Origin: Haloquadratum walsbyi C23
GTDB taxonomy: Archaea; Halobacteriota; Halobacteria; Halobacteriales; Haloferacaceae
Length of the DNA: 32,000 bases
Assembly: GCF_000237865.1 (NCBI RefSeq)
Contig: NC_017459.1
Coordinates: forward strand, 2,370,001-2,402,000
Reading direction: 5' to 3'
Below the pieces are notes generated by a model. It had not been told where the DNA came from. It ran no database searches and saw only the letters and a list, made by a program, of their open reading frames with translations. The position numbers were made by a program, and so were the translations under genes. Positions 1 to 17,002 of the stretch are shown here, one piece after another (the first letter of the stretch is position 1; each line of letters begins with the position of its first letter).

Positions 1-1159
1 AGGCAAGCCCATTCGTGATGAGGTCCTTGGATACGGTTCGCAGAGTATCTCTGAGGCAGATAAAAAAGCGATCACAGAGGCGCTTGAGGGCGACTATATT
101 ACGCGCGGTCCAGCCGTCGAGGAGTTTGAACAGCGAGTTGCGGATTTCGTTGGCGTTGACCATGCGGTTGCGAGCACTTCAGGAACGACTGCACTGCATC
201 TCGCTGGTGAGGCTGCCGGGTTCGAATCGGGAGACGAAGTAATCACGACACCACTCACATTCGTCTCGACTGCTCACGTCGCCACATATACTGGAGCAAC
301 CCCAGTGTTCGCTGATATTGACCCACATCGGCGCTCACTTGATCCTGACGCAGTCCGCGAGCAAATCACAGACGATACGGCTGGAATCGTTCCGATGCAT
401 TATGATGGATTGCCAGCCGATATTGAAGAATTGCTTACAATTGCCGATGAACATGATCTCACTGTTATCTGGGACGCCTGTCATGCGTTTGGCGGCGAGT
501 GGCGAGACGAACTGATTGGTGCACAGCGGGATATGGTAATGTTCAGCTTTCATCCAGTCAAGAACATCACGACTGGGGAAGGGGGAATGGTCGTTACCGA
601 TGATGATGAATTGGCGAAGCGATTACGCAGATTCCGCTCGTTTGACATGGACTATGCTCCAGCGGGGTATGAAGATGAACCATGGTATCAGGTCACCGAG
701 GGAGTTGGGTATAATTATAACTTTACTGATATTCAGGCTGCATTAGGCTTAGCACAGCTCGATCGAATTGAAGAGTTCAAAGCTCAGCGAGATATGATCA
801 TCGAATCATACAATGCGGCGTTTGAGGAGGTGCCAGGAATCCGTACGCCACCGGATCCTGTCGAATCCGATCCGATGCGTCATTTGTACGCGATTGAGGT
901 CAACGAGGAGTTTGGATGTGACAGAAAAGAGTTTATTAACGCTATGCATGCTGAGAATCTCGGTGTACAGGTACACTATGTGCCATTGCATTATCACCCG
1001 TACTTCCAAGAGGAATTTGGATATGAAGAGGGGATGTTTCCCGTGGCTGAAGAGGTGTATGATAAGTTAGTGAGTATGCCGTTACATGCTGAGATGAACC
1101 AAGATGATATTGGAAAAGTGACCCAGGCAGTTGAGCGGCTTCACCGGTATCATAATTAA
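1..1159 (+). CDS. DegT/DnrJ/EryC1/StrS-family PLP-dependent sugar aminotransferase (PseC/SpsC-like); 5' end outside window
   Basis: The frame of ORF 305..1159 stays open back to base 2 (GKPIRDEVLGYGSQSISEADKKAITEAL..TSGTTALHLAGEAAG..ITTPLTFVSTAH). PLP-lysine motif FSFHPVKNITTGEGG. Family-typical YNYNFTDIQAALGLAQL. Confidence 0.88.
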   Translation, partial: GKPIRDEVLGYGSQSISEADKKAITEALEGDYITRGPAVEEFEQRVADFVGVDHAVASTSGTTALHLAGEAAGFESGDEVITTPLTFVSTAHVATYTGATPVFADIDPHRRSLDPDAVREQITDDTAGIVPMHYDGLPADIEELLTIADEHDLTVIWDACHAFGGEWRDELIGAQRDMVMFSFHPVKNITTGEGGMVVTDDDELAKRLRRFRSFDMDYAPAGYEDEPWYQVTEGVGYNYNFTDIQAALGLAQLDRIEEFKAQRDMIIESYNAAFEEVPGIRTPPDPVESDPMRHLYAIEVNEEFGCDRKEFINAMHAENLGVQVHYVPLHYHPYFQEEFGYEEGMFPVAEEVYDKLVSMPLHAEMNQDDIGKVTQAVERLHRYHN

Positions 1160-1825
1160 GCGAAAATTATATACTTTTTGACCGATACTAACAGTTCATA
1201 TCATTTTGGGTATAAATTGTGGATCTATATGTCAACTATTCATAGGTATCGATGAGAACTCGTTCGGATAATATAATAGCAATTCACGACTCTGTCGACA
1301 ATTGTCTTTTCTGGGCCTTCCGGATTATGCTCTATGATGAATAGACTGTAGTTACATATTGGGTAGTCCAGTTTTCGAGTAGAGACACCGAAATTATCTT
1401 TGAGGGTGTCAGTATAGTTGAATAGGATGTTATATGGAAAACGTCGAACTCCAGATGCGATACCGCGAGAGCGGGAAGATTGCACTCTGTCGGTGATTGT
1501 CGTGCGTCATTCAGCATGGGTGGACTCAGCCATGAATTCAGCCTCAAACCAACCCGCTCATCAGGTATCCTTGTGGTTATGCTCAATGAGTGGCGTCTCA
1601 TACCCTGCGGCTGCTGTCATCCCTACAATATCGATGGAGAGCTTCGTCTTCTCCATCCCACCGTTCTGCTGCGTCGCTGCTATTTTAGCAGGTTATGCTA
1701 GCGTAGCTATACGTACCCTCCAAAATAGCGTGGATCTTAGTCAGATAAGAGCCCAACTCACGTCTCAGTGTCTTCATTTGAGTGGTTGAGGTGGGTTTAT
1801 TAGGTTGTTTGCGCTCTATTCATCT

Positions 1826-2875
1826 ATGAACGAGCTCAAGATCGGGGACCGGCTAGTTGGACCCGACGAACCGACGTTTGTGATCGCTGAAGCGGGATCA
1901 AATCATAATGGTGATCTTAGTATAGCAAAGGAACTGATTGAGGTTGCTGCAGACGCGGGGGCAGATGCAGTAAAGTTCCAGACGTTTCGTGCAGAGGATC
2001 TCTATGTCGAGGAGAGCGGCGATGTCGAGTACCTAGACGATGACAGAAGCATATACGAAATTATTGAATCAATGGAAATGCCCTATGACTGGATACCAGA
2101 ACTTCACGATTACTGCCACGAGCAGGGCGTTCAATTTCTGTCTACACCGTTTGATGAGCGCTCTGCAACAGAGCTTGCAGAATATGTCCCAGCATGGAAA
2201 GTCGCATCGTACACAAGTAGTCATATACCATTTTTGAAATATCTTGCAGGGACAGACAAACCAATCATTATGTCTACAGGAGCACATAATCTCGAAGAAA
2301 TCGAAGAGTCGGTGACTGCTCTCAAAAACGCCTCTGTTTCAGGTCTTGTGTTACTTCAATGCGTAGCTGCGTATCCAACCCCACTCTCAGAGATCAATCT
2401 CCGTGTCATTGAGACACTTCGCAAAGAGTTCAATGCACTCACAGGACTTTCGGATCATACGTTGGACCCGGTTACAGCTCCGACCACTGCTGTCGCACTG
2501 GGTGGAAGTGTCGTTGAGAAACACTTTACACTTGATAACGACATGGAAGGACCAGATCACGAGTTCGCATTAGAACCAGATAAACTGAACAAGATGATCT
2601 CTGCGATCCGAGATACCGAGACAGCGCTCGGCACCGGACAAAAACGAGTGCTTGGGGTCGAAGACGAACTGTATGAGAAGGGACGAAGAGCAATTCAGGC
2701 TACTACTAGTATTGAAGCTGGTGAGGAGTTGAGTTCAGAAAATGTGAGCGTACTTCGACCCGGCGAGCGGGAAACAGGAATGCATCCTAAATTTTATGAT
2801 GAAATACTTGATGAAACTGTTTCACAAAAGATACAGAAAGGTGAAGGCATCCGGTGGGAATACATAGAAGACTAA
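1826..2875 (+). CDS. neuB: NeuB-family nonulosonic acid synthase (PEP-condensing; NeuB/PseI/LegI/SpsE type) with C-terminal SAF-like domain
   Basis: FVIAEAGSNHNGDLSIAKELIEVAADAGADAVKFQTF, LSTPFDE, GLSDHT and VEKHFTLD motifs. The ORF track starts at TTG 1805; the first ATG (MNELKIGDR) is at 1826. Confidence 0.88.
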   Translation: MNELKIGDRLVGPDEPTFVIAEAGSNHNGDLSIAKELIEVAADAGADAVKFQTFRAEDLYVEESGDVEYLDDDRSIYEIIESMEMPYDWIPELHDYCHEQGVQFLSTPFDERSATELAEYVPAWKVASYTSSHIPFLKYLAGTDKPIIMSTGAHNLEEIEESVTALKNASVSGLVLLQCVAAYPTPLSEINLRVIETLRKEFNALTGLSDHTLDPVTAPTTAVALGGSVVEKHFTLDNDMEGPDHEFALEPDKLNKMISAIRDTETALGTGQKRVLGVEDELYEKGRRAIQATTSIEAGEELSSENVSVLRPGERETGMHPKFYDEILDETVSQKIQKGEGIRWEYIED

Positions 2876-2894
2876 TTATATCTGATTCTGTTTA

Positions 2895-4178
2895 TCAGTT
2901 GTTGAGACGAGAGGTTTCAATTTCTGTAGCAGATTTCCGAATCTCAGAGACTGTCTCAAAATCAGGGTTAACAGATAGCGCATCAATTCCGAATTCAATC
3001 AATTTACGTGCTAACTGTTCATCTGATGCGGCTTGTCCGCCGATACATGTTTCAATCTCATTATTATTGGAGATAGATATGACACGTTCGAATAACTTGA
3101 GCACAGCGTCTTCCTTTTCATCGAATTTTGACTGAAGTTTCTCGTTGTTGCGGTCAATAGCTAAAGTGAATTGAGTGAGGTCATTACTTCCAAAGACAAC
3201 AAAATCGATATGTTCAATAAATTGTTCAAAAGTGAGAGCCACAGCGGGCGTCTCAACCATTAATCCGAACGAGATATCCGTTAGTCCAGCATCTTTGGCA
3301 TATGACTTCCATTCAAGGAACTCTGATTGTAACCGCGTCATCGGTGGAAATAGACCGATATTTTCATACCCTCTATCGACTAACTTTTTGATAGACTCGA
3401 TTTGAATATCATATAAGCCAGGATCCTCGGTTGATCTGGAAATTCCTCTCCATCCTAACATTGAATTATCTTCTTTATTTTCATGTCTCTTACCACACTC
3501 CATCTGTCTAAGATGCGAGACAGCGAAGTCATCAGTTCTGATCCACACAGGATCAGAATATGTGCTAACGACAGATTCGATACGGTTCGCAAGTTGGTTT
3601 TCTAATGCCTCACGTCCATGTCGTTCAGTATATTCTTTTGGGTGCGTGTCGTCCAGCAGATCCAATAGAAGAAATTCAAGTCTCATAAATCCGACTCCCT
3701 CAGTTACTCCAGACAGTTTCGGATGCTTCTCAAGGACTTCTGGAAACCCCAGATTCAGTTTAATTTCTGTATCACAATCTGGGAACGGCAGGTTATTATA
3801 TGACTTTTGATATGAATTTGAATTAAAAACATCCCCAAGGTAAATTTCATTACCCATTATAGTCAAACGTTCTCCATTATAATCACACAATGTATTAGAT
3901 ATTCCAGAAATGCAGGGGATACCGAGTTCGTTTGCTAACAGAACACCGTGATCAGTGCGCTCTATCCTCTCACACAGGATTGCGCGTACATCTGATTTTG
4001 CCAAGTCATAAAATAGTGTCACATTATTTGTCGTTGACACAGAAGAAGGGACATATACTATATTTCCTTCAGCAACTTGCGTAGTATGATCGCTGCTTGA
4101 TATAATTTTGAGAGGTCCTGACACCCTTCTCTGTGGACCTAGTGAAGTGCCCACCTGAATCGGCTCACTGACAGTCAT
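2895..4178 (-). CDS. PEP-utilising enzyme lacking its own nucleotide-binding domain: phosphohistidine swivel domain plus PEP/pyruvate-binding TIM barrel
   Basis: Swivel motif ERTDHGVLLANELGIPCISG. Barrel motifs GFMRLEFLL, GWRGISRS, FGLMVETPAVAL, FGSNDLTQFTLAIDRNN, GGQAASD. Track ORF is 2895..4319. Plausible starts are ATG 4178 (MTVSEPIQVG) or 4205 (MKAISYPKQ), both overlapping the upstream ATP-grasp stop. Confidence 0.8.
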   Translation of the reverse strand: MTVSEPIQVGTSLGPQRRVSGPLKIISSSDHTTQVAEGNIVYVPSSVSTTNNVTLFYDLAKSDVRAILCERIERTDHGVLLANELGIPCISGISNTLCDYNGERLTIMGNEIYLGDVFNSNSYQKSYNNLPFPDCDTEIKLNLGFPEVLEKHPKLSGVTEGVGFMRLEFLLLDLLDDTHPKEYTERHGREALENQLANRIESVVSTYSDPVWIRTDDFAVSHLRQMECGKRHENKEDNSMLGWRGISRSTEDPGLYDIQIESIKKLVDRGYENIGLFPPMTRLQSEFLEWKSYAKDAGLTDISFGLMVETPAVALTFEQFIEHIDFVVFGSNDLTQFTLAIDRNNEKLQSKFDEKEDAVLKLFERVISISNNNEIETCIGGQAASDEQLARKLIEFGIDALSVNPDFETVSEIRKSATEIETSRLNN

Positions 4179-5160
4179 TTGCTTGGGATAAGAGATTGCT
4201 TTCATCAATATATACTTGATCCGTGTACCGAATAATACCCAAACCAGTCTCATACTCATCAACTGGTTCAATCTCTTCATCAAGCGCATTACGAACCAAT
4301 AGATCGAACTCATTGACACCTGCCTCTACAGTAAGGCAGGAAGATCCGGAAAACCGAGGATTAATTTCAATTAGATACGGTATACCATCTTCATCAAGCA
4401 TGTGCTGAACATTCATTGGACCGGCTGGTTCAAGAGCTTCAAAAGCCTCTATACAAGCCTCGTAAACAGTTGGATTATCTCTCGTTATCCCTAGGGCTGT
4501 GTAGTTATTACGCTCTGGAACTTCCTTTGTCACTATTGACAGAAGGCGATTGTCGTTGGTCACAGTAACATTCGAAGTATATTCAGGACCGTTGATAAAT
4601 TCTTGAACTAAAAGATTACTCTGATCAACTTCATTTTCATCAATATATTCTCGAAGATCATCAGAGGTATGTATTAGTTGAACTCCTCGACTTCCTTGTC
4701 CATATCGAGGCTTTACAATTTTTGCGGGCTCCTTGCTCTGTGACTCAAACAATCCACTATGGGTGTCAGCGACCGAGGTTTCAGGTATTCGCAATCCATG
4801 TTTACGAAAATACTCGTACATTTCCTTCTTATCTACCGTTTTTTCGATTAAACCCCGTCGGGGAACAATTACTGGGATATCGTTTGGAAGAGCGGATTGG
4901 AGACGGTCAATTTCTTGCAATTCCTGATCAATAAGAGGTATAACTATATCCACATTGTACTCATTTACTACTCGTGCCATAGCAGTTGGCCACTCGTTAT
5001 CTGAGGCAGCAGGAACACAAACACCATGATCTGCGATATAAAGACCTGCTCCATGAGGGTTCATATCCACTGCTATCGTTTCATGAGACGCTTTCTGAAG
5101 CGATTGAATTGCACCGATTCCGATATCACCGCCAGCAGCCGTAATTAATACGCGAGCCAT
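4165..5160 (-). CDS. Stand-alone ATP-grasp enzyme (carbamoyl-phosphate-synthase/PylC-like fold)
   Basis: N-terminal MARVLITAAGGDIGIGAIQSL, central KPRYGQGSRGV and LVQEFINGPEY, C-terminal LIEINPRFSGS. Stop at 4165-4167 overlaps the downstream gene start by 14 nt. Confidence 0.8.
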   Translation of the reverse strand: MARVLITAAGGDIGIGAIQSLQKASHETIAVDMNPHGAGLYIADHGVCVPAASDNEWPTAMARVVNEYNVDIVIPLIDQELQEIDRLQSALPNDIPVIVPRRGLIEKTVDKKEMYEYFRKHGLRIPETSVADTHSGLFESQSKEPAKIVKPRYGQGSRGVQLIHTSDDLREYIDENEVDQSNLLVQEFINGPEYTSNVTVTNDNRLLSIVTKEVPERNNYTALGITRDNPTVYEACIEAFEALEPAGPMNVQHMLDEDGIPYLIEINPRFSGSSCLTVEAGVNEFDLLVRNALDEEIEPVDEYETGLGIIRYTDQVYIDESNLLSQANDCQ

Positions 5161-5209
5161 ATCATTATCTTCCCACAGATATACTTAATTCCCACACTCT
5201 CAATAATAT

Positions 5210-5887
5210 ATGAAAATAGGGTTCATTAGTGATGTTCACGCTAATCTTCCGGCTTTAGATGCTATATTAAATGATTTGCAACATATGGATAAGATTGTTC
5301 ATGCGGGAGACATAGTCGGATATAATGCATTTCCAAGAGAGGTAATCGAGTGTTTTCAAGAGCAAAATATTGATTCGATCGCTGGGAATCATGATAGAGG
5401 TATCTCTGATAGTGATGATTTTGATTTCCCTAGACCTGCACTAGAAGTCATAAACTGGACTATGGGCGAGCTCACGATAGAAAATAAGGAATTCATCAAC
5501 CGACTCCCAACAGAATTGCGATTAGAAATAGATGGTTACACGATTCTGGTAGTTCACGGATCTCCGTATGAACCGAATGAGTATATCTATCCTACAGATT
5601 TAACATTGGAATTAGTCGAAGGTCTGGATGAGACAATAGATGTACTAATCTTGGGGCATACACACTATCCAATTGTCACTAAGCTAAGCGGTGTTCTACT
5701 AGTGAATCCAGGGAGTGTTGGACAACCGCGCGACGGTGATTGGCGTACAAGCTACGCGGTCTTTGATACTCATACTGGAACAGTAGAGCTTAGACGACAA
5801 GAATACAATGTTGATAAAACAATTGAAAAGGCTAAAATAGAGTCTTTTCCACAGCAGATCATCAATTCATTCCGCCAGTCAAATTAA
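5210..5887 (+). CDS. Calcineurin-like metallophosphoesterase (MJ0936/YfcE type)
   Basis: Ordered metal-ligand motifs ISDVHAN, AGDIVGY, GNHD, VHGSP, GHTH. It diverges from the ATP-grasp gene across a 49-bp spacer. Confidence 0.85.
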   Translation: MKIGFISDVHANLPALDAILNDLQHMDKIVHAGDIVGYNAFPREVIECFQEQNIDSIAGNHDRGISDSDDFDFPRPALEVINWTMGELTIENKEFINRLPTELRLEIDGYTILVVHGSPYEPNEYIYPTDLTLELVEGLDETIDVLILGHTHYPIVTKLSGVLLVNPGSVGQPRDGDWRTSYAVFDTHTGTVELRRQEYNVDKTIEKAKIESFPQQIINSFRQSN

Positions 5888-6535
5888 ATTCTACTTTTGA
5901 AGCTGAGATTGATGACGATTGCCTAACTCAGAAAGTTCAGGATCTGGTACTGTTTCAGGATCGCCGATCAAACCCGAAAATGATTGAATTTTCGCACAGA
6001 ATCCGACTGTATATACAACATGTTTTGTATCACAAAGGGATCCATTCATGACTATACTCCGTGATTGTGGAGTAGACAGGTCCACCGATAATTAAAAATA
6101 TTCAGGGCAACCTGTGCCAATTTCTCATTCGATCGAAATCTCGTGATTTGATTCGACAACATTCCCACCTAAGTAAACCAAAACAATATCAGAGGGCATC
6201 AGTTTGGGATACTGAATCGTTGAAAGAGTAATCGCAATTGTTCGATCATCAAATCGACAATTTACACATTTCCGAATGTTTCTTAATTTAATCCATCATT
6301 AAGGACCCCGTTAACTATCTCGCAAACTCTTTTCTTACTTTTGTCGTAGTACTTGTCATATCAAGTAATGGTCTAGTTTCTAACCTATAATCACAATTCT
6401 CTGTTAACCATGTTTCGGGTAGTAGGACGGGGTATGCTACAGACTTTGTCTTTTCAGGACTTTTTTCTGGATATGAATTGATACATATTTTAAAAATATC
6501 GTTCATTTGCTCAGAACAAACAGTAGTTGGTCTGA

Positions 6536-7537
6536 CTAGTTTATGTTTGTTATTTTATGATAAATTCGATCCGTTCCGTATGCATCAACCAATTCACGCC
6601 CAGCCTCAGAGTATCTTTTTCGGAGCGATGCATCTGACATGTATCGGTCTATACTCCGGCGAAATCCCGGATTCCCTTCGCCCGCGTTGACCACACTCGC
6701 CATATTTCTATTTTCGAGAGTTTCTGCTATTATCTGTTGATTCTCGGCTACTGGTTGGCACACAATAGGGGTACCAACTGCGAGGAGTTCATATGTTGTG
6801 CTGCTCGCCGTACTGACGGCGATATCTGCTTGAAACATCCGCTCCACGAGATTCTCAGGATCACGGCTTACTGATACATCGGGAGTCACGGCTTCAGCGG
6901 CGGCACGAGCGGCACGTTCTTGTTGTTCAGAAAACCCAGGTCCAACAATCGCGTCCACGTGCAGATTGAATTCTTCGAATAATCTGATAACTGTTGGCGT
7001 TCGATTCTGTATGTCACTTCCCCCCATTGTAATGAGAGCGCGACGAGGGGAGTCTCGCCACGGCGGGTCTTGATCAGCGAGCAGTCGAACTTCTTCTCGA
7101 AGCGGGACAAAGTCAGGTCCGAGAAGTTGCTTTGGGGGATTGCCAACGAAATCATATGTAAGATCTGACGCGTAGAGATTACCATTGATCAGGATATCTG
7201 CACAAATCGGATAGCGAGCATCATCTATATACACCGCGAGCGGGACGTGTTCGCGTATTCGTTGTTGATATTCTGTATCAGCGGGATATGCATCGATAAG
7301 AACGGCATCTGGTTGGTTTACTTGTATCCATTCAAGCAATCGACTTGGATTTGATCTTGAATCGAGGGTAGTGACTTCGACTTCCCCCGGACATACTTCC
7401 TCGGCAGTCTCTGGCGTTGTTGTTGCGTATGTGACCGTATGATCTTCATCAAGAAACTCACGTGCAATGGCTGCTGTTCTCACGAGATGACCGTATCCTA
7501 TTTCTGATCCACCGTCAGCTCGGATTGTGAGATGCAT
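6536..7537 (-). CDS. pseG: PseG/SpsG-like UDP-sugar hydrolase (glycosyltransferase-28-like fold)
   Basis: N-terminal IRADGGSEIGYGHLVRTAAIA and central ITMGGSDIQNRT match the PseG family pattern. 333 aa. Confidence 0.78.
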   Translation of the reverse strand: MHLTIRADGGSEIGYGHLVRTAAIAREFLDEDHTVTYATTTPETAEEVCPGEVEVTTLDSRSNPSRLLEWIQVNQPDAVLIDAYPADTEYQQRIREHVPLAVYIDDARYPICADILINGNLYASDLTYDFVGNPPKQLLGPDFVPLREEVRLLADQDPPWRDSPRRALITMGGSDIQNRTPTVIRLFEEFNLHVDAIVGPGFSEQQERAARAAAEAVTPDVSVSRDPENLVERMFQADIAVSTASSTTYELLAVGTPIVCQPVAENQQIIAETLENRNMASVVNAGEGNPGFRRSIDRYMSDASLRKRYSEAGRELVDAYGTDRIYHKITNIN

Positions 7538-7544
7538 GAGTGAT

Positions 7545-8282
7545 CTACTTTTGTGTCACATCAGCATTCAGTTTGTGTAAATCTCGATCATCAATCACCG
7601 AGACTGCGTCTCTTATCGGGAGCGTATCCTCATACTCAACTCGGTTATAAATCTCTCGAAGCAGTTCATAATCATCGGCTTCATCCAAGGTTATCCGGAG
7701 ATCGGTTCGATCCTGCATCCAGGATCTATTAAATATCTCTTCAGAAGTCACAGAAGCAAGATTGAACTGATCATCGTTTTCCCGATAATATGTGGTGACG
7801 TGTTCGCGGTGATGTGGCTCTTTCGCGTTTTCATGTATGTGTTTGAAACTCTCATAACTGAATGCCTCGACATCAAGACCACGAGGGAAAGTACGCTCAA
7901 CGGTATTTGAGCAATAATCCACATTCTCTGTAGCGAGGCGGTCAACCACAGCATCAATCACATCCCAATCGATCAACGGACAATCACCGGTAATTCGTAC
8001 TACTGTCTCTGCATTCGCTCCTGTAGCCGCAGAGAGCATTCGATCAAGCACATCATCTTCACTCCCACGGAACACTGTTGCGCCAGCGCGATTAGCATAC
8101 CGAGCAATAATATCGTCAGCTGTTTTCGTTGAGGTAGCAACGACGACTTCGTCTATCGTATCCGCCTCTTGTACTCTCTGTATATCATGTGTTAGCACGT
8201 GAGACCGCTCAAGTGGCAACATCATCTTTCCTGGTAGCCTCGTTGATCCCATCCGAGCTTGAATAATTGCAACAGTTTTCAC
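7545..8282 (-). CDS. Acylneuraminate/SpsF-type cytidylyltransferase (CMP-nonulosonate synthetase candidate)
   Basis: MKTVAIIQARMGSTRLPGKMM N-terminus and ITGDCPLID motif. Lies 8 bp downstream of the PseG-like gene on the same strand. Confidence 0.8.
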   Translation of the reverse strand: MKTVAIIQARMGSTRLPGKMMLPLERSHVLTHDIQRVQEADTIDEVVVATSTKTADDIIARYANRAGATVFRGSEDDVLDRMLSAATGANAETVVRITGDCPLIDWDVIDAVVDRLATENVDYCSNTVERTFPRGLDVEAFSYESFKHIHENAKEPHHREHVTTYYRENDDQFNLASVTSEEIFNRSWMQDRTDLRITLDEADDYELLREIYNRVEYEDTLPIRDAVSVIDDRDLHKLNADVTQK

Positions 8283-8885: not shown

Positions 8886-10130
8886 ATGTCTATGCAATTT
8901 GATTCAGCAAGGCCGTCAGAAGACGTAACGGACGCCTCTAACATCAATTCTACTGATCTCGTCGCTGACGAACTGTACTCGCTGCTTGACGAAGTCGACA
9001 GCGAGTCGATTGCCGATGAATTCAAGATTGGGCTCCATTCCGACAAACACGACTTCACAAACCACGTCAAGACGGCTGTTCGTGAGGGTCTTGACCCCTC
9101 CAGCTCACTCGCTGAACTTGAGGATAAGACCATTGTCGACGACTCACTCGAACACATGCCTAAATCACGGTTTTCAGAACTCACGAACGACCGCGACTAC
9201 TGCGCGGTCGTTCAACTCCTCTTCGAAGTACTACACACACCACAGTTGTATCATCAACGTGGAGTTCAACGAAAACGACTGGAGTGGATGACACGAGGTG
9301 TTGTCGCTGTTGATGCCACAAACCTCGAACTTACGCGCTCTGTTGTCGTCTCAGACGAGTTCGTCGGAGACGACGACAAGGTCTACAAGATCGACACAGA
9401 CGATGGTGGTCTCGAACTTCACTGCGCAGCACGTGTGGATGGAGAAAACAAACATCCACTCGACGCTACTGTTACAGAGGGCGACACCCACGAAAGCCCG
9501 CAGTTCGATCTCCTCAAGGAAGATGTCGAGGTCTTTGCAGACCTCGACTCGGTAATCTGGGTCTTTGACCGCACATACACGCGATATCTACGGTTCTGTG
9601 AGATCAAGCATAGTGACAATGATTTTGTCACACTGATGTACTCAGACGCTTGATTTGAACTCAGTGAGACACTCGAAGAGTTCGAGGTCACCGTCTCAGG
9701 GAACAACACCGCTCAGCCGACTCACTCAGATGAGGAATCAACACGACGGGTACAGGTTCGTGATGAACGAATTGAGTGAGCTGAGACTGGCGAAGAGTTC
9801 CGCAGGATTGTGCTAGAAACGCCCGATGGAGAAGAGATTGAGTCCCTGACGACGCTGGCGTCGTCAGAGTACGATCCAATCGACGTGATCAACATCTACA
9901 CACTACGGACAGTGATTGAGATCCTCTTCCGAGAGTGGAAACAGTACCTCAACATCGAGAACTTTCACTCGAAATCGCTGAACGGCGTGTTATTCGAGCT
10001 GTTCTGTGCATTGATTGGATATATGCTGGTCGTATGGTTTCGCCAACGCCACCCAGTCAAGGGTGGCGTGGCGCGTGCTATCCAGAAAGTTCGCACCTTC
10101 TGGAATGAGACGCTGGATTCATTCGGCTAA
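8886..10130 (+). pseudogene. IS4-family (ISH8-like) DDE transposase interrupted by two in-frame TGA codons
   Basis: ORFs 8886..9653 and 9810..10130 share one frame. The stops are TGA at 9651-9653 and 9777-9779, and the sequence between them also reads through in that frame. DDE candidates are VAVDATN and WVFDRTYTRY. The IS4 signature Y-2-R-3-E-6-K is present in YTLRTVIEILFREWK. Confidence 0.8.
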
Positions 10131-10146
10131 TCAACCTTCACTTTCC

Positions 10147-10182
10147 GGCGACAGCCGTCACCCACCAGCGACGGCTGTCGCC
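10147..10182. repeat. Perfect 13-bp inverted repeat (hairpin) 17 nt after the transposase stop
   Basis: GGCGACAGCCGTC (10147-10159), a 10-nt loop, then GACGGCTGTCGCC (10170-10182). Confidence 0.9.
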
Positions 10183-10439
10183 TGTGCCGCGATCATTCAT
10201 CGTTTCTTTCCTTGAACTGCTATTTCTCTTGGCTCAACACGGATGTCACCGACAACTGTTCGATGAGTGAACTCCCATACGATTCTTACCCAGCAGTTCG
10301 TTGGGAGAGAATTTCGCCGGGCTTTATGAACCCAGAACGCGACAGAACGTGGCAACGACCAGAAACAACCCATCAAAGTATGGAAATGAAGATCTCATTT
10401 CCTTCGCTGGTCGTTTGACAGTTTGGAAATGTGGTCCCT

Positions 10440-10660
10440 CTCAAAATCCGCTACTATGGTGGTGCGACGGGGGCTTCAACGGGCGGAGTGAAGCCGCCGA
10501 CCTCCACGGACTCCTCGCGGAGTTCGGGTGTAATTCCAGCCGACCCCTCACGGGGAAGGTCGGAGGGAATTAAATTCGCCTGCGGGTGCTGTGCAGACCC
10601 CAAACGGTGAAGCCTCGGGGCTTGACCCCGAGGTACTCCACTATCACCACCCGGATAATA
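10440..10660. other. GC-rich, hairpin-dense non-coding stretch (candidate structured RNA or element remnant)
   Basis: Stems: 10472-10478/10489-10495, 10507-10514/10519-10526, 10540-10547/10552-10563 and 10613-10620/10626-10633 (8 bp perfect). Overlapping ORFs encode basic, non-halophilic peptides. Confidence 0.35.
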
Positions 10661-10749
10661 ATCAATTCTCTCTTGACAACTCCAGTAATGGATCGAGTGC
10701 CGACGCATATTCAATCGAGCGCATATCGACCCAACGGGCACTGCTCACT

Positions 10750-12555
10750 TCAGAACTCCTCTAACAGGTCGTCCAGCATCGGCCGCAGTTTGTACTTCTG
10801 ATAGTGTTCGTCCCGCATCGTCTCAACATATTCACGCCACTCCTCTAGTTCACCAGCCGCCTGTGCCGCTTCGCCCGCGCGCCTGAGCCACCGGACGGCT
10901 GTCTCGTAGCTATCGTGTTTGCCCTGTTCGACAATCGGTTCAGCCTGGGCTTTGCACGTGCTAATTACCCAGTCCGGTCGCTCCGCAATCACCGCCTGGA
11001 CGACGGGTTCGATGACACTGGTCCGACCGCTTCGCTTCGCAAGGGTGATTGCGTCGTCGTACTCGTTCTCACGGATGAACACCTCTGCTGCCCGAGCAGC
11101 AGTCTCGCCACCGAGCTGTTCAGTGCGGAGATATTCCAGCAAGTCGGTCTTGATCGTCTCCCAGTTGTCGGCAGCGAGTTCTTCGACCGCCTCGAAGGCA
11201 CTCACTGACGGACTCGTCTCGAACGCAGTGATGGCTGCTTCAAGTGCGAGGCTGTCTTCACCAGCGCTGGCTGCCCGATCACGGAGCCATTCCGCCAGCG
11301 CGTCTTTTCCGTATTCCTCGACTGTCAGTCCGTGTTCGGCGACAGTGAAGGCCGCATCCGTGTGGCCATGTTCTCTGAGCGTCTGTGCCAGCGATAAAAG
11401 TGAGTTGGGGTCCGACAGGTGTTCGATTCCATACTCGACCGCCTCCTCGATTCGTCCCATCCCGACCAGCATCTCCGCGTGAGCGAGGTCGGCTCCTGCT
11501 GCTCGCGAGAAGTTGAGATACGCGTTAGGACGGTCCTGACGGGCGAGGATACGCAGACGGACATCAATCACGTCGGGTGCGTACCAACTCCGCTTGTCTT
11601 CTTCGAATTCCCCATGATTGAGGTCGCCCTCCAATGCATGCTGGACACGGTCGTTGTCCCACCCCTCTATTACCGCGTCGGCAGCAGCACCCAGGACCGT
11701 GCCGCTCATGAGATGCGCGAACGTCGTACTCTCGTCCCATTCTCTCAGTTGCTGCTCCCAGTCAGCTCGCTTCTCTTCGGGTAGATCGGCTATGAGGACT
11801 GCCTCGACGAACAACGTACCAAGATCGCCGATCGTCTCGAAGAGGTCCGGGACATCATGTGGCAGCAGCCCGGTCCATCTGTTGGTCACGAGGACCTCTG
11901 TGGTGGCTTCGAGAATGTCGAGTGCCGTCTTGCCGTCACCAGCCTCAATGGCCAGCCGTGCCTGTTCGAGAAGTTCGTCCAGTTCCCCGGACATCCGCTG
12001 TGCTTCTGCATGGGCATCGTTATGACCGCGCTGGCTCGGCTTTGGCAATGCATGCTCGGCCTGCCGCCGAATCGACTCCAAGTTGACCGAGATTGACTCG
12101 TCAGTGGCTACCTCATCGGCGATCTCACTGGGTTCGAGACGGGTTTCAAACCAGTCAGCCACGTCTGACCGCTCCGCAGCGAATTCGACGAGCAACTCTT
12201 CGAGAGTCTCTCGATCCGCATCAGCGAGCAGGTCTGACAGCGGAGGCTGGGCACGCACACGCTCGGGGTTGCGAAGACACGTCAACAGCACGGCAACCCG
12301 GTGTTTGCAGATTCCACCGTGGTCGTAGGGACAGGAACAGTCCGTGTGAGCAACGCCGATGTCGTCGAAATTAATTGTGATTGTGTAGGGCTGGTACTGG
12401 CTTCCCTCGACATCAGCCCTGACTCTGTCTCCGCGTCGCACCACGTCACTGACTGCTTCCTGCTCGTAGTACGACTGTCCCCGCTGGTAGGAGTTGGATC
12501 TGGCCAGTTCCCTGATCGTTGCTTCCGTCAGGGGTGGCCACTCGTCATCATTCAT
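10750..12555 (-). CDS. SWIM zinc-finger protein with long alpha-helical (TPR-like) C-terminal region
   Basis: CxC..CxH SWIM signature in HTDCSCPYDHGGICKHRVAVLL near the N-terminus. 601 aa, acidic. Its GC is visibly higher than the flanks, and several long antisense shadow ORFs run through it. Confidence 0.82.
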   Translation of the reverse strand: MNDDEWPPLTEATIRELARSNSYQRGQSYYEQEAVSDVVRRGDRVRADVEGSQYQPYTITINFDDIGVAHTDCSCPYDHGGICKHRVAVLLTCLRNPERVRAQPPLSDLLADADRETLEELLVEFAAERSDVADWFETRLEPSEIADEVATDESISVNLESIRRQAEHALPKPSQRGHNDAHAEAQRMSGELDELLEQARLAIEAGDGKTALDILEATTEVLVTNRWTGLLPHDVPDLFETIGDLGTLFVEAVLIADLPEEKRADWEQQLREWDESTTFAHLMSGTVLGAAADAVIEGWDNDRVQHALEGDLNHGEFEEDKRSWYAPDVIDVRLRILARQDRPNAYLNFSRAAGADLAHAEMLVGMGRIEEAVEYGIEHLSDPNSLLSLAQTLREHGHTDAAFTVAEHGLTVEEYGKDALAEWLRDRAASAGEDSLALEAAITAFETSPSVSAFEAVEELAADNWETIKTDLLEYLRTEQLGGETAARAAEVFIRENEYDDAITLAKRSGRTSVIEPVVQAVIAERPDWVISTCKAQAEPIVEQGKHDSYETAVRWLRRAGEAAQAAGELEEWREYVETMRDEHYQKYKLRPMLDDLLEEF

Positions 12556-14059: not shown

Positions 14060-15415
14060 ATGAAAGATAATGACTCTGACTTGCGGCAGCCAAATGCCGA
14101 GTCTGGTTCTGGTTGGACACAGGAGTCCGAATCGTCTGTGGTGGATAGCATCCTCGATGGTGACGCACAGACTGTGTTCGAAAATAAGGACCTCGTGGAC
14201 TCGAGTACGATTGTTGATCAAGACAGGATCTACGGTCGCAATGAGCAACTCGCTGCTGAGGCGCGGGCGTTTCGGGATACTCTCGATGGTGAGCGACCAC
14301 CAGATCTGCTTCTCTACAGTCCCAGTGGAACAGGCAAGACGCTGACTGTCAAAGCCGTCGCGAGCAAAGTAAAAGAACGGACCCAAGAGAGTGGTATCGC
14401 GTTCGACTTCGTCGCGGTCAATTTCAAGACGATGGAATCTCACACACTCGACAGGGCAGTGTGGAAGTTGGGTCATCAGACGGCACAGAAAGCAGGCGTG
14501 GGTTGGGATGTGCCTCGATCAGGTGTCTCGACAGATATGAAATACACTCGACGCTACGAGATTGTCAACGAGCACTTTGACTCGCTCGTATTCATCCTCG
14601 ACGAGATCGACGCGCTGACCGGTAGCACGGGCGCAGACGAACCGGCCTACTCCCGGCTTCTCTACAGTCTGAGTCGGGTCATGTCCGAACAACATGTTGA
14701 TACGCAACTATCGACAGTAGTTATAACTAACTACCCGAAGTTCCGCGAGAATCTGGACAGTCGGACAGACAGCTCCTACAACCCGAACGGGATTCACTTC
14801 TCTGACTACGACGCTAACGAGCTCGTCGAAATCCTTGAACGACGTCGAGATGCGTTCAGAGACGACGCCCTCGAGGATGGCGTCATCGAGATTGTGGCTG
14901 CGTATGGTTCCCAAAACGAAGGTGATGCACGTCGAGCAATCGATCTACTCCGGGATGCTGGTGAGATTGCGAACCAAGCGGGCGATTCCACGGTCACTCA
15001 AGACCACGTCAGGTCAGCAAACCAGTCTGTAATGAAGAATCGGGTTCTCGAGATTGTTGGCGGGATATCTGTTCAAAAGAAGTTGTCTCTGTGCGCGGCT
15101 GCGCTTGTCGCAAAAGAGAATGAGCGAGTGGCTCCGAGTCCTGTAGTGTATGATATCTACAAAATTCTCTGTGAGGGGAACAACATGAAAATGTACACGC
15201 AGGAAACGGTAAATAGTCACATCAACAAAGCTGAAACATACGGTGTTCTGGAGAGTGAGCGATCAAGTTCCGGGTTTAAATCAGGAGTCCATCTCGTCTT
15301 TACATTCACCGAGCCCGTTGAGGCTGTCTTGGAAACATTGAATGAAGATAGCCGGCTTCAGGATATTCCGACCGAAGAGCTTGGAAAGGTAGTGAAGAGA
15401 CGCCTTCGAGATTAG
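14060..15415 (+). CDS. orc1: Orc1/Cdc6 AAA+ replication initiator (paralogue 1)
   Basis: Walker A SPSGTGKT, Walker B VFILDEID, sensor region NEGDARRAIDLLRDAGEIA and a C-terminal winged-helix-like region. 451 aa. Confidence 0.9.
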   Translation: MKDNDSDLRQPNAESGSGWTQESESSVVDSILDGDAQTVFENKDLVDSSTIVDQDRIYGRNEQLAAEARAFRDTLDGERPPDLLLYSPSGTGKTLTVKAVASKVKERTQESGIAFDFVAVNFKTMESHTLDRAVWKLGHQTAQKAGVGWDVPRSGVSTDMKYTRRYEIVNEHFDSLVFILDEIDALTGSTGADEPAYSRLLYSLSRVMSEQHVDTQLSTVVITNYPKFRENLDSRTDSSYNPNGIHFSDYDANELVEILERRRDAFRDDALEDGVIEIVAAYGSQNEGDARRAIDLLRDAGEIANQAGDSTVTQDHVRSANQSVMKNRVLEIVGGISVQKKLSLCAAALVAKENERVAPSPVVYDIYKILCEGNNMKMYTQETVNSHINKAETYGVLESERSSSGFKSGVHLVFTFTEPVEAVLETLNEDSRLQDIPTEELGKVVKRRLRD

Positions 15416-16375: not shown

Positions 16376-17002
16376 ATGGTGGTAACAAATGTCCCGGCTG
16401 CGAACGAGAACGGCTCGAAAGAGGGCACCGCACGCTCCTTTATTGCAGCCTCAGAGATACTGGTGAATCCCAACATCGCCAGAGTCTATACTGACATCCT
16501 GCTGAATCAGCCTACTACGAACAGCAGTATCGAGCGTAGACTCGATCTTGCCGGAAGTACAACCTCAATGCGGGTTGGAAAGCTCAAAAACTTAGACATT
16601 GTCGAGGATGTCAGTAGCGGGAAAGAGAGCCAGCTCCGGACTGATTCACTATTTCTCCCCGTTGGGGAGGAAGAGACGCGGATACTGTTTGACCCGCTTA
16701 CGATCGCCGCTTACGGTGCAAGCGGCGAGGTCAGTGAGATCGAACTCTTCGTTGATCGGCACGGCAAGGCGAAGCTGCTGATGGCGGTTGAGCAGACACG
16801 GGCATATCTCAGTGGCGAGGTGACTCGTCGTGGAGCAGCAGACCGCCTCAATGTTGATGAGATCGAGGCTATCAGCATCACGCAGGCGCTAGAGCCAATC
16901 ATTGCCCTGTTTGTCAAAGCAGGGCTCATCGATGATTCCTTCGAGCACGACGTACATGATCGGAAGATTCGAAACACTCCGTACGTGTTTGAGCAGGAAT
17001 GA
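16376..17002 (+). CDS. Winged-helix (ArsR/MarR-like HTH) DNA-binding protein
   Basis: The N-terminal segment NPNIARVYTDILLNQPTTNSSIERRLDLAGSTTSMRVGKLKNLDIVEDV looks like a wHTH. 208 aa, acidic. The stop overlaps the next ATG (ATGA). Confidence 0.55.
   Translation: MVVTNVPAANENGSKEGTARSFIAASEILVNPNIARVYTDILLNQPTTNSSIERRLDLAGSTTSMRVGKLKNLDIVEDVSSGKESQLRTDSLFLPVGEEETRILFDPLTIAAYGASGEVSEIELFVDRHGKAKLLMAVEQTRAYLSGEVTRRGAADRLNVDEIEAISITQALEPIIALFVKAGLIDDSFEHDVHDRKIRNTPYVFEQE

What the first reader, a model, noticed from the sequence alone, without database searches (positions are those of the whole stretch)
2895..5887. Split dikinase-like module (stand-alone ATP-grasp plus swivel-His/PEP-barrel protein) with a divergent metallophosphoesterase inside a nonulosonic-acid cluster
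Seen: ORF 4165..5160 is a carbamoyl-phosphate-synthase/PylC-style ATP-grasp. Its stop overlaps by 14 nt the ATG (4178) of a protein with a PEP-utiliser phosphohistidine motif (ERTDHGVLLANELGIPCISG) and a PEP/pyruvate-binding barrel (GFMRLEFLL, FGLMVETPAV, FGSNDLTQFTLAIDRNN, GGQAASD). That protein has no nucleotide-binding domain of its own. A MJ0936-type phosphoesterase diverges from the pair across only 49 bp, and the PEP-consuming NeuB-type synthase gene ends 20 bp from the 3' end of the barrel gene (convergent).

Established: PEP synthase and PPDK carry grasp, swivel and barrel domains in one chain. The described pseudaminic pathway (PseB, C, H, G, I, F) and legionaminic pathways contain no such enzymes.

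Inference: this may be a two-gene His-relay phosphotransferase that regenerates PEP for the condensation step. Alternatively it may phosphorylate a sugar intermediate or the final nonulosonate, with the phosphoesterase removing or editing that phosphate.
Basis: partly seen in the sequence, partly recalled or inferred. Interest (0 to 1): 0.68.

Follow-up and report, generated by a model that had tools for sequence, protein, structure and literature searches.

The report
Sugar-tailoring trio with truncated PEP-synthase relative
Three intact neighbouring genes in a haloarchaeal pseudaminic-acid sugar cluster most likely add an unusual side group to a surface sugar, and one of them belongs to a rare, unstudied family related to PEP synthase that lacks both the ATP-binding domain and a key catalytic cysteine.

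Summary
The genes, domains and spacings are as described: a 14-nt overlap, a 49-bp divergent gap and a 19-bp convergent gap.

The "split dikinase that regenerates PEP" reading is not supported, for four reasons.
- The barrel protein keeps the swivel His and the PEP/Mg ligands. The general-acid Cys of PEPS, PPDK and Enzyme I is Gly or Ala across its family.
- The ATP-grasp is a PylC/PurK-type ligase fold, not a dikinase nucleotide domain.
- In hypersaline metagenomes its relatives carry a divergent phosphatase in 26 of 35 loci. Only 4 of 40 carry a barrel.
- The barrel also occurs without any ATP-grasp, fused or adjacent to a nucleotidyltransferase plus a CDP-alcohol phosphotransferase, or fused to a HAD phosphatase. 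The trio also occurs without neuB.

Best reading, which is inferred: this is a glycan-tailoring module. The barrel enzyme makes a phosphorylated small building block through phospho-His77. The ATP-grasp amide-links that block to the amino sugar. The metallophosphoesterase then removes the phosphate. Trans-charging of His77 by the ATP-grasp remains a live rival.

The short, Cys-less barrel family is rare. About 15 of the top 150 cluster representatives, from a library of 1.84 billion, are clearly members. I found no literature on it.

The parts
2895..4178 (-). Short 'PEP-binding' protein: phosphohistidine swivel domain (His77 in TDHG) plus PEP/pyruvate-type TIM barrel. It has no nucleotide-binding domain, and the catalytic Cys is replaced by Gly380 (CIGGQ).
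   Evidence: Pfam and NCBIfam. PDB alignments to PEPS 8a8e. Family alignment. AF2 model with pLDDT 92 whose best folds are PEPS, PPDK and EI.
4165..5160 (-). PylC/CPS-like ATP-grasp, predicted to be a carboxylate-amine ligase. It is probably translationally coupled to the barrel gene through a 14-nt overlap.
5161..5209 (.). 49-bp AT-rich divergent intergenic region shared by the ATP-grasp/barrel operon and the phosphoesterase gene. It is presumed to be a bidirectional promoter.
   Evidence: Sequence read. The same divergent phosphatase/ATP-grasp layout occurs in 26 of 35 related loci. The promoter function is an inference.
5210..5887 (+). YfcE/MJ0936-family metallophosphoesterase with all five metal-binding motifs: DVH, GD, GNHD, H and GHTH.
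   Evidence: The orthologue sits in the same position in L091/L095 and in barrel-less Halobellus L093.
5894..6336 (-). Frameshifted and partly deleted remnant of a class II aldolase gene. The gene is intact (231 aa) in relatives L091 and L095.
   Evidence: tblastn fragments in two frames. Pfam and NCBIfam calls on the intact copy.
1805..2875 (+). NeuB-family nonulosonate synthase (PseI/NeuB), convergent with the barrel gene.
1..1159 (+). PseC-type aminotransferase. It is intact but cut by the window start.
   Evidence: A contiguous tblastn alignment covers 2..1150.
6536..7537 (-). PseG-type UDP-sugar hydrolase.
   Evidence: TIGR03590 scores 170 bits against a cutoff of 153.6.
7545..8282 (-). 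CTP_transf_3 cytidylyltransferase, in the PseF/NeuA role.
1440..1692 (-). Remnant of a ParA-like gene between pseC and neuB. This marks the cluster as a mosaic, mobile island.
   Evidence: The intact copy is at L095 6809-7603.

Best explanation
The three genes form a glycan-tailoring module inserted in a pseudaminic-acid cluster. It is not a PEP-regenerating dikinase.

Shown:
- The ATP-grasp belongs to the PylC/PurK/amino-acid-ligase class.
- Its conserved genomic partner is a divergently transcribed phosphatase (HAD or metallophosphoesterase), often with a PIG-L sugar deacetylase.
- The barrel protein belongs to a rare PEPS-derived family. The family keeps the swivel His and every PEP-phosphate/Mg ligand but has lost the ATP domain and the general-acid Cys.
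- That family is fused or adjacent only to enzymes that handle small phosphomonoesters: HAD phosphatase, sugar/alcohol-phosphate nucleotidyltransferase plus CDP-alcohol phosphotransferase, and IMPase.

Inferred mechanism:
1. The barrel enzyme takes a phosphoryl group onto His77. The most likely donor is PEP bound in the barrel.
2. It passes the phosphoryl group to a small acceptor, producing a phosphorylated building block X-P. My preferred guess for X is an alpha-hydroxy acid or a hydroxy-amino acid, because such molecules fit a pyruvate-type pocket that no longer needs C3 protonation.
3. The ATP-grasp activates a carboxylate as an acyl-phosphate and amide-links X-P to the sugar. The likely site is the 4-amino group made by PseC, which becomes N7 of the nonulosonate.
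4. The metallophosphoesterase removes the protecting phosphate.

In the ATP-grasp-less variant of the family, the same X-P would instead be nucleotide-activated and transferred as a phosphodiester.
For: Domain and residue anatomy. His77, R166/E168, R214/D217, R244, E309, N332/D333 and R343 are invariant. Cys is replaced by Gly or Ala in 41 family members, against Cys in 153 PEPS-type sequences.

ATP-grasp fold class.

ATP-grasp census, sampled independently of the barrel:
- A phosphatase lies directly upstream and divergent in 26 of 35 loci.
- A barrel is present in 4 of 40 loci.
- PIG-L is adjacent in 15 loci.

Barrel-less examples: Halobellus L093 has the metallophosphoesterase and ATP-grasp as a divergent pair inside a Pse cluster with no barrel. 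Haloarcula L094, L142 and L143 have HAD and ATP-grasp as a divergent pair.

Barrel fusions and contexts:
- HAD-barrel fusions P0042 and P0243.
- NTP_transferase-barrel fusions P0028 and P0032, next to CDP-OH_P_transf and IMPase.
- A separate NTP_transferase, barrel and CDP-OH_P_transf in Parcubacteria L009.
- barrel-grasp-HAD-DegT in L010.
- No ATP-grasp-barrel fusion was seen among the sequences examined.

Selection: the trio stays intact under purifying selection while its neighbours decay. dN/dS is 0.10-0.17. The aldolase is a pseudogene and the 250-aa gene is lost in the window, while neuB is deleted in L095.

Precedent for ligating a phosphorylated substrate and then dephosphorylating it: the Cj1438C ATP-grasp amidoligase uses serinol-P or ethanolamine-P, and the Cj1435 HAD then removes the phosphate (PMC11800379).
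Against: - No substrate is identified. X, the phosphoryl donor and the acylated atom are all inferred.
- Loss of the general-acid Cys is expected (my own knowledge of EI Cys502 and PPDK Cys831) to cripple PEP-dependent autophosphorylation as well. This weakens "PEP is the donor" and favours trans-charging by the ATP-grasp.
- The barrel and ATP-grasp genes overlap or abut in 6 of 7 adjacent pairs across very distant lineages. That is tighter than ordinary pathway neighbours and would suit a physical complex.
- The phosphatase could instead act on a phosphorylated aglycone or sugar (mycothiol-like logic: GT4, then phosphatase, then PIG-L, then ligase) rather than on the ligated acyl group.
- The absence of PseH from the window is weak evidence, because the cluster is a mosaic and runs off the window.
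- The distant barrel-associated loci (L003, L007, L010) were found through the barrel, so they are ascertainment-biased.
Confidence: 0.45

Rival explanations
1. Two-component ATP-dependent dikinase. The PylC-like ATP-grasp binds ATP and phosphorylates His77 of the barrel protein in trans, much as the ATP-grasp beta-subunit of succinyl-CoA synthetase charges a histidine on the alpha subunit. The swivel then delivers the phosphate to an alpha-hydroxy acid, alpha-keto acid or sugar bound in the barrel, and the phosphoesterase edits the product.
For: - The barrel protein has no nucleotide domain of its own.
- The general-acid Cys is lost, which argues against PEP as the phosphoryl donor.
- The genes overlap or abut in the window, L095, L096, L135, L010 and L007.
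- The pairing is conserved in haloarchaea, Geothermarchaeales and CPR bacteria.
- Barrel-associated haloarchaeal ATP-grasps form one clade.
- Two-component dikinases do exist: HpeHI (PMC12167813).
Against: - The ATP-grasp fold class is ligase or carboxylase, not PPDK_N/RPH.
- About 90% of sampled relatives have no barrel but keep a phosphatase.
- The barrel family works without any ATP-grasp in the nucleotidyltransferase / CDP-alcohol-transferase contexts.
- No ATP-grasp-barrel fusion was found, whereas HAD and NTP-transferase fusions exist.
- In Haloglomus-type loci the two genes are separated by two oppositely oriented genes.
Confidence: 0.22
2. The barrel enzyme acts after the ligase. The ATP-grasp attaches PEP or another phospho-acid from central metabolism to the sugar amine. 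The barrel and swivel protein then strips or relocates the phosphate from the ligated product, for example leaving an N-pyruvoyl group. The phosphoesterase serves another step such as nucleotide-sugar cleavage.
For: - Barrel-less ATP-grasp/phosphatase pairs must draw their substrate from general metabolism.
- The PEP-binding residues are intact.
- The phosphoesterase is closest to uncharacterised and Ap4A-hydrolase-like phosphodiesterases (3rqz, 3qfm).
Against: - A HAD-barrel fusion would join two phosphate-removing activities.
- NTP_transferase fusions imply that the barrel's product is a free phosphomonoester which is then nucleotide-activated.
- A bulky sugar-linked amide is unlikely to fit a conserved PEP pocket.
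Confidence: 0.1
3. One reading: the pair is a split PEP synthase that regenerates PEP from pyruvate for the NeuB condensation.
For: - The barrel is most similar to PEPS.
- neuB is convergent, 19 bp away.
Against: - The Cys needed to enolise pyruvate is absent family-wide.
- The protein scores 263 bits against a 598-bit cutoff on the PEPS equivalog model.
- The module lacks neuB in L095 and in L001, L002, L003, L007, L010, L089 and L097.
- NeuB releases phosphate, not pyruvate, so there is nothing local to recycle (established chemistry).
- The haloarchaeal ppsA genes found on plasmid records are a separate lineage, only 31-32.5% identical to this barrel.
Confidence: 0.03
4. The barrel gene is a decaying or non-catalytic passenger in a mosaic island, and its adjacency to the ATP-grasp has no functional meaning.
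For: The island is visibly eroding. It contains an aldolase pseudogene, a ParA remnant, a broken IS and a neuB deletion in L095.
Against: - dN/dS is 0.17 for the barrel gene.
- 31 columns are invariant, including all catalytic ligands.
- The AF2 model is confident.
- The adjacency is conserved across phyla.
Confidence: 0.05

Closest known systems
Phosphoenolpyruvate synthase / pyruvate,phosphate dikinase (PEPS, PPDK)
   Same: Homologous swivel phosphohistidine domain and PEP/pyruvate TIM barrel. It is 40% identical to the Pyrococcus-type PEPS C-terminal domain 8a8e. All phosphate and Mg ligands are conserved.
   Different: - No PPDK_N ATP/AMP domain.
- The general-acid Cys is Gly or Ala.
- The residue before the His is Asp (TDH rather than TSH/TCH).
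- RTLD has become RT[D/N]D.
- The protein scores far below the equivalog cutoff.
- The genomic context is glycan tailoring, not gluconeogenesis.
PTS Enzyme I
   Same: A swivel His plus a PEP barrel with no ATP domain, which in EI is charged by PEP. It is the closest architectural analogue for a PEP-driven phosphohistidine relay.
   Different: There is no HPr-binding helical subdomain. Cys502 is not conserved. No PTS partners are nearby. The protein scores 112 bits against a cutoff of 342 on TIGR01417.
Two-component small-molecule dikinases (HpeHI; phenylphosphate synthase PpsAB)
   Same: The ATP-binding and swivel-His functions are on separate polypeptides encoded side by side (PMC12167813).
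   Different: In those systems the ATP subunit is the RPH/PPDK_N-type grasp, and the His subunit carries an RPH-like substrate domain rather than a PEP barrel. Here the grasp is PylC/CPS-like and usually occurs without the barrel.
VadK (Rv1127c), a truncated PPDK of M. tuberculosis
   Same: It is a naturally truncated member of the same superfamily that has been put to a new role (PMC13400623).
   Different: VadK keeps the nucleotide and His domains and lacks the barrel. The window protein is the complementary truncation.
C. jejuni Cj1438C ATP-grasp amidoligase plus Cj1435 HAD phosphatase
   Same: Same pathway logic: an ATP-grasp amide-links a phosphorylated small molecule to a sugar, then a phosphatase removes the phosphate (PMC11800379). 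A conserved phosphatase/ATP-grasp pairing is seen here too.
   Different: Cj1438C is a TupA-like grasp fused to a glycosyltransferase, and homology to the window ATP-grasp was not tested. There is no PEP-barrel component. In that system the carboxylate belongs to the sugar (GlcA).
PylC and L-amino-acid ligases (BL00235, RizA)
   Same: These are the best structural and sequence matches of the ATP-grasp with known function: carboxylate-amine ligases that work through an acyl-phosphate.
   Different: Identity is only 14-20%, and the substrates are unrelated. The closest structure, 2pn1, is of unknown function.
IPCT/DIPPS (inositol-phosphate cytidylyltransferase plus CDP-alcohol transferase plus IMPase)
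   Same: The ATP-grasp-less branch of the barrel family sits in exactly this gene set. This suggests the barrel supplies the phospho-alcohol or phospho-acid that is then nucleotide-activated.
   Different: This comparison applies to relatives, not to the window. In those loci the barrel takes the place where I would expect the enzyme that supplies the phospho-alcohol (inositol-phosphate synthase in the classical pathway, from my own knowledge).

Membership tests
PEP synthase (pyruvate, water dikinase) | N-terminal PPDK_N ATP/AMP-binding domain | tested here: not met
   Matches cover only PEPS profile positions 359-791, and there is no PF01326 hit.
PEP synthase (pyruvate, water dikinase) | Swivel-domain catalytic histidine | tested here: met
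   His77 aligns with the PEPS phosphohistidine and is invariant in 31 family members.
PEP synthase (pyruvate, water dikinase) | PEP-phosphate and Mg2+ ligands in the barrel | tested here: met
   R166, E168, R214, D217, R244, E309, N332, D333 and R343 are invariant.
PEP synthase (pyruvate, water dikinase) | General-acid/base Cys (ICGQ) for interconverting pyruvate and its enolate | tested here: not met
   The window has CIGGQ, with Gly380 at this position. It is Gly or Ala in 41 family members and Cys in 153 PEPS-type sequences. The catalytic role of this Cys is from my own knowledge of EI C502 and PPDK C831.
PEP synthase (pyruvate, water dikinase) | Score above the curated equivalog cutoff | tested here: not met
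   NF005057 scores 262.7 bits against 598. TIGR01418 scores 247 bits against 740.
Two-component dikinase (HpeHI / phenylphosphate synthase type) | Separate ATP subunit of the RPH/PPDK_N ATP-grasp type | tested here: not met
   The ATP-grasp hits PylC-like_N and ATP-grasp_3. Foldseek returns 2pn1, PylC, PurK and biotin carboxylase, and no PPDK or RPH structure appears among the 50 best matches listed.
Two-component dikinase (HpeHI / phenylphosphate synthase type) | The two subunits are obligately co-inherited | tested here: inconclusive
   The barrel is next to an ATP-grasp in all type-A loci. However, the ATP-grasp lacks the barrel in 36 of 40 sampled loci, and the barrel lacks an ATP-grasp in L005 and L009.
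Two-component dikinase (HpeHI / phenylphosphate synthase type) | ATP-dependent phosphorylation of the swivel His in trans | not testable with these tools
   This needs biochemistry or a complex prediction. Only monomer predictions were available.
PTS Enzyme I | HPr-binding helical subdomain and a score above the cutoff | tested here: not met
   TIGR01417 scores 112 bits against 342, and only profile positions 287-533 align.
ATP-grasp carboxylate-amine ligase (PylC-like) | PylC-like N-domain plus an ATP-grasp core with the E-x-N-x-R Mg/acyl-phosphate motif | tested here: met
   PF21360 and PF02655 are both above their cutoffs. K150, E265, N267 and R269 (the EINPR motif) are invariant in 25 sequences. 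The fold matches PylC 4ffl and 4ffr.
ATP-grasp carboxylate-amine ligase (PylC-like) | Demonstrated amide-bond formation | not testable with these tools
   No characterised close homologue was found. The best PDB match, 2pn1, is of unknown function.
Ligate-then-dephosphorylate tailoring pair (Cj1438C/Cj1435 logic) | ATP-grasp genetically coupled to a phosphatase in glycan loci | tested here: met
   26 of 35 loci have a divergent HAD or metallophosphoesterase directly upstream. The window, L091, L095 and L093 carry the metallophosphoesterase version.
Ligate-then-dephosphorylate tailoring pair (Cj1438C/Cj1435 logic) | The substrate of the ligase carries the phosphate that the phosphatase removes | not testable with these tools
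   This is inference only. A mycothiol-like order of steps is an alternative.
Pseudaminic acid pathway (PseB, C, H, G, I, F) | PseC, PseG, PseI and PseF homologues are clustered | tested here: met
Pseudaminic acid pathway (PseB, C, H, G, I, F) | PseH N-acetyltransferase in the cluster | tested here: not met
   No acetyltransferase lies in 1..8282. The Halobellus PseH-like protein gives no tblastn hit. The only GNAT is at 22028-22597, in an unrelated context. PseB and anything upstream of the window cannot be seen.
YfcE/MJ0936 metallophosphoesterase | Score above the family cutoff and the five metal-binding motifs | tested here: met
   TIGR00040 scores 90.1 bits against 56.25. The motifs DVH, GD, GNHD, H and GHTH can be read in the translation.

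The most novel reading that the evidence does not exclude
The short, Cys-less, ATP-domain-less PEPS paralogues would be a new class of phosphohistidine kinase that makes phosphorylated building blocks for surface-glycan decoration. In the ATP-grasp-coupled branch, which includes the window, His77 would be charged in trans by a ligase-type (PylC/CPS-like) ATP-grasp. That would be the first dikinase-like relay built from a non-PPDK_N grasp, and the same ATP-grasp might also perform the ligation.
Probability: 0.2. Interest if true: 0.8.

Novelty: new variant of a known kind. Interest (0 to 1): 0.6.

Why it matters
This work defines a rare, conserved and apparently unstudied offshoot of the PEP-utilising enzyme superfamily. 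It has a clear sequence signature: TDH-G, RT[D/N]D, and [G/A]G in place of CG.

The family occurs in two recurring genomic settings. One pairs it with an ATP-grasp ligase and a phosphatase. The other pairs it with a nucleotidyltransferase and a CDP-alcohol transferase.

If the model is right, it explains how some archaea and CPR bacteria make non-acetyl substituents on nonulosonic and other amino sugars. Those structures shape S-layer and archaellum glycans and virus recognition in hypersaline communities. It would also add a new phosphoryl-relay solution to the PEPS / PPDK / EI / RPH theme.

The work also gives a concrete, cheap set of in-vitro experiments, and it corrects the tempting annotations "pyruvate, water dikinase" and "carbamoyl-phosphate synthase large subunit" that these genes carry in metagenome databases.

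Tried and rejected
- **Genome scan with the barrel alignment.** Only L009-L011 were short forms, and the known Haloglomus and Natrialbaceae loci were missed, so no co-occurrence statistics were taken from this scan.
- **tblastn of the window ATP-grasp against distant loci.** This missed the divergent ATP-grasps. It was replaced by an HMM search.
- **Exact-protein lookup of the window ATP-grasp.** The protein is not on record.
- **Search for a fusion of a PylC-type ATP-grasp with the barrel.** None was found. Odd-length hits were PPDK_N-containing PEPS, fragments, or HAD and CSD fusions.
- **Plasmid database.** Only canonical ppsA was found, at 32.5% identity or less.
- **Literature searches.** These covered PEP-utilising, ATP-grasp and nonulosonate combinations, the Ter-operon ATP-grasp module, and the role of the catalytic Cys. 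No paper on this family was found, and no open-access source for the Cys role, so that point rests on my own knowledge.
- **First residue-extraction script.** The column mapping was wrong. It was redone.
- **The 250-aa neighbour in relatives.** It has no Pfam, NCBIfam or PDB match.
- **Carboxyphosphate or PEP-carboxylation chemistry, a phosphonate pathway, and F420-type 2-phospholactate supply.** I considered all three and set them aside. Nothing in the contexts (glycan genes, PIG-L, DegT) supports them specifically.

Full report
**1. Observation**

- The barrel gene is 2895..4178(-), 427 aa.
- The ATP-grasp gene is 4165..5160(-), 331 aa. Its TGA lies 14 nt inside the barrel ORF.
- The metallophosphoesterase gene is 5210..5887(+), across a 49-bp divergent gap.

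Pfam and NCBIfam give the following.
- Barrel protein: PEP-utilizers_C at 4.9e-52, plus a weak mobile domain. Only PEPS positions 359-791 are covered, so there is no nucleotide-binding domain.
- ATP-grasp: PylC-like_N plus ATP-grasp_3/ATPgrasp_Ter, the family annotated as "CPS-like" (PRK12767).
- Phosphoesterase: YfcE family, above the curated cutoff.
- Flanking genes: PseC (intact but cut by the window start), NeuB/PseI, PseG and a PseF-type cytidylyltransferase.

Acidic proteins and 99%-identical hits from hypersaline metagenomes indicate a haloarchaeon.

**2. The barrel protein belongs to a distinct, rare family**

Homologue searches separate two groups. One is a set of 400-437-aa proteins that NCBI calls "putative PEP-binding protein". 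The other is full-length PEPS.

In a profile search of 1.84 billion cluster representatives, about 15 of the best 150 belong to the short family, scoring 339-610 bits. PEPS starts below that.

The family alignment shows that the swivel His (His77) and every PEP-phosphate/Mg ligand are invariant. Three changes are diagnostic.
- Asp precedes the His: TDH-G, where PEPS has T[S/C]H-A.
- RTLD has become RT[D/N]D.
- The general-acid Cys of PEPS, PPDK and Enzyme I (ICGQ) is Gly or Ala. This holds in 41 family members, while 153 PEPS-type sequences have Cys.

That this Cys protonates or deprotonates C3 of pyruvate is my own knowledge (EI Cys502, PPDK Cys831). I could not find an open-access source.

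The AF2 model is confident (pLDDT 92, pTM 0.89). It matches the PEPS C-domain, PPDK and EI. The haloarchaeal ppsA genes found on plasmid records are only 31-32.5% identical, so this is not a recent fragment of a canonical haloarchaeal ppsA.

**3. The ATP-grasp is a ligase-type enzyme whose constant partner is a phosphatase**

Sequence and fold searches place it with 2pn1 (function unknown), PylC, PurK, biotin carboxylase and L-amino-acid ligases. It does not group with PPDK_N or rifampin-phosphotransferase grasps. The EINPR motif and the ATP-binding Lys are invariant.

I fetched 47 metagenome loci using the ATP-grasp itself, so the sampling is blind to the barrel.
- 26 of 35 loci with enough upstream sequence have a divergently transcribed phosphatase directly upstream: 24 HAD and 2 metallophosphoesterase.
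- Only 4 of 40 loci contain a barrel.
- A PIG-L sugar deacetylase is adjacent in 15 loci.

Annotated examples:
- Halobellus litoreus has the same divergent metallophosphoesterase/ATP-grasp pair inside a Pse-type cluster, without a barrel.
- Haloarcula and two other contigs have a divergent HAD/ATP-grasp pair in glycan loci.

A neighbour-joining tree puts the haloarchaeal barrel-associated ATP-grasps in one clade. That clade is sister to the barrel-less metallophosphoesterase pair, and outside both lies the large HAD/PIG-L clade.

**4. Contexts of the barrel family**

Type A is a barrel with a PylC-like ATP-grasp and a hydrolase.
- The window, L091, L092 and L095 carry the metallophosphoesterase. 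The relatives also have an intact class II aldolase and a 250-aa unknown gene.
- Haloglomus, Natrialbaceae, L089 and L097 carry an Amidohydro_2 hydrolase and a P-loop protein, and are not in a nonulosonate cluster.
- Geothermarchaeales have an adjacent pair next to APS-kinase-like and APH-like genes.
- A CPR or unclassified bacterium has GFO/IDH/MocA, barrel, ATP-grasp, HAD, DegT.
- Curtissbacteria have a HAD-barrel fusion followed by the ATP-grasp, among UDP-ManNAcA-type genes.

Type B has no ATP-grasp. It consists of an NTP_transferase, either fused (P0028, P0032) or separate (Parcubacteria L009), plus a barrel and a CDP-alcohol phosphotransferase, sometimes with an IMPase.

The fusion partners found are HAD and NTP_transferase. 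An ATP-grasp was never found as a fusion partner.

**5. The window copy is functional, in a decaying mosaic**

Compared with L095 (about 82% nucleotide identity), dN/dS is 0.17 for the barrel, 0.14 for the ATP-grasp and 0.10 for the phosphoesterase. Around these three genes:
- the aldolase is a frameshifted remnant at 5894-6336;
- the 250-aa gene is gone;
- a ParA remnant lies at 1440-1692;
- a broken IS closes the cluster at 8886-10130;
- in L095, neuB itself is deleted and the island is flanked by an integrase and ParA.

The trio is therefore the part that selection keeps. No PseH-like acetyltransferase is present in 1..8282.

**6. Interpretation**

PEP regeneration for NeuB is very unlikely.
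- There is no Cys for pyruvate enolisation.
- The protein scores far below the PEPS cutoffs.
- The module occurs without neuB.
- NeuB does not release pyruvate.

A strict split dikinase is weakened by three observations. The ATP-grasp has a ligase fold, the ATP-grasp is independent of the barrel in most loci, and the barrel is independent of the ATP-grasp in type B.

The reading that unifies the contexts is as follows.
- The barrel enzyme uses phospho-His77 to make a small phosphorylated building block X-P.
- In type A, X-P is amide-ligated to an amino sugar by the ATP-grasp and then dephosphorylated.
- In type B, X-P is nucleotide-activated and transferred as a phosphodiester.

The ligate-then-dephosphorylate logic has an experimental precedent in C. 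jejuni Cj1438C and Cj1435 (PMC11800379). In the Pse setting, the obvious acceptor is the 4-amino group made by PseC. This is the future N7, the position that PseH normally acetylates (established pathway knowledge).

The identity of X, the phosphoryl donor and the ligated atom are all inferred. I favour PEP as the donor because its ligands are conserved, but the missing Cys argues against it. I favour an alpha-hydroxy acid or hydroxy-amino acid as X for two reasons. A pyruvate-type pocket with extra room and two new acidic residues would suit such a molecule. The associated HADs are also weakly phosphoglycolate-phosphatase-like.

**7. Rivals and novelty**

The main rival is trans-charging of His77 by the ATP-grasp. 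Supporting it are the missing Cys, the overlapping genes in 6 of 7 adjacent pairs, and the conservation of the pairing across phyla. Known two-component dikinases (HpeHI, PMC12167813) and the complementary truncation VadK (PMC13400623) show that the superfamily tolerates such splits, but both use PPDK_N-type grasps.

I found no literature on this short family. I rate it a new variant of a known kind, with moderate to high interest. If the ATP-grasp-charged relay proved true, it would be a novel enzyme architecture.

Noticed in passing
window 5894-6336 (-): Pseudogene remnant of a class II aldolase (FucA / ribulose-1-P-aldolase-like). The fragments lie in two frames and the middle is missing. 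The gene is intact (231 aa) in relatives L091 and L095, between the phosphoesterase and a 250-aa unknown gene that is absent from the window.
   Followed up: partly
window 1440-1692 (-); L095 6809-7603: Remnant of a ParA-like gene between pseC and neuB. blastn shows that the neuB body (about 1916-2876) is present in the window and L091 but cleanly deleted in L095, where the island is flanked by an integrase and an intact ParA. The island is therefore a mobile mosaic.
   Followed up: partly
window 8886-10130 (+): An IS4-type DDE transposase split into two ORFs (8886-9653 and 9810-10130) marks the end of the Pse cluster.
   Followed up: no
window 14060-15415 (+), 18554-19840 (-), 16376-17002 (+): Two Orc1/Cdc6 paralogues flank a DUF7437 gene. 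A 601-aa SWIM zinc-finger protein lies at 10750-12555. This may be a replication-origin or plasmid-derived region.
   Followed up: no
window 2000-7000 compared with 10000-12000: GC content is 40-45% across the trio and the Pse genes, against 55-60% a few kb away. This is consistent with a horizontally acquired island.
   Followed up: no
L094, L099, L100, L103, L107, L108, L114, L116-L118, L140, L143 and others: In barrel-less haloarchaeal loci there is a recurrent triad: a PIG-L deacetylase, a HAD on the opposite strand and the ATP-grasp, sometimes with a GT4. This is the same step logic as mycothiol biosynthesis (phosphatase, deacetylase, ligase). The triad is uncharacterised as far as I could find.
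   Followed up: partly
L005/L006 3062-5068; L009 9238-12109: An NTP_transferase (fused or separate), a Cys-less barrel and a CDP-alcohol phosphotransferase, with or without an IMPase, occur in CPR-type bacteria. This looks like an IPCT/DIPPS-type pathway with the barrel in the place of the phospho-alcohol supplier.
   Followed up: partly
P0036, P0037, P0040, P0043 (CPR / Chloroflexi short forms): These short barrels keep the Cys (ICGQ) and the TDH motif, but they have lost the Arg of the IRTDDF motif (FCTNDF, LSTNDF). They may be an evolutionary intermediate or a different specificity.
   Followed up: no
L091 510-1262 / L095 2088-2840; also L122 3967-4773: A 250-aa protein with a C-terminal GHHR-type motif has no Pfam, NCBIfam or PDB match. 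It co-occurs with the ATP-grasp and neuB in three different contig types.
   Followed up: partly
L001 11303-12064, L089 2043-2804, L097 6066-6827: In the Haloglomus-type loci, a 253-aa P-loop protein and an Amidohydro_2 hydrolase sit between the barrel and the ATP-grasp. These loci lie next to an ABC transporter, a TPP enzyme and an aldehyde dehydrogenase rather than glycan genes.
   Followed up: no
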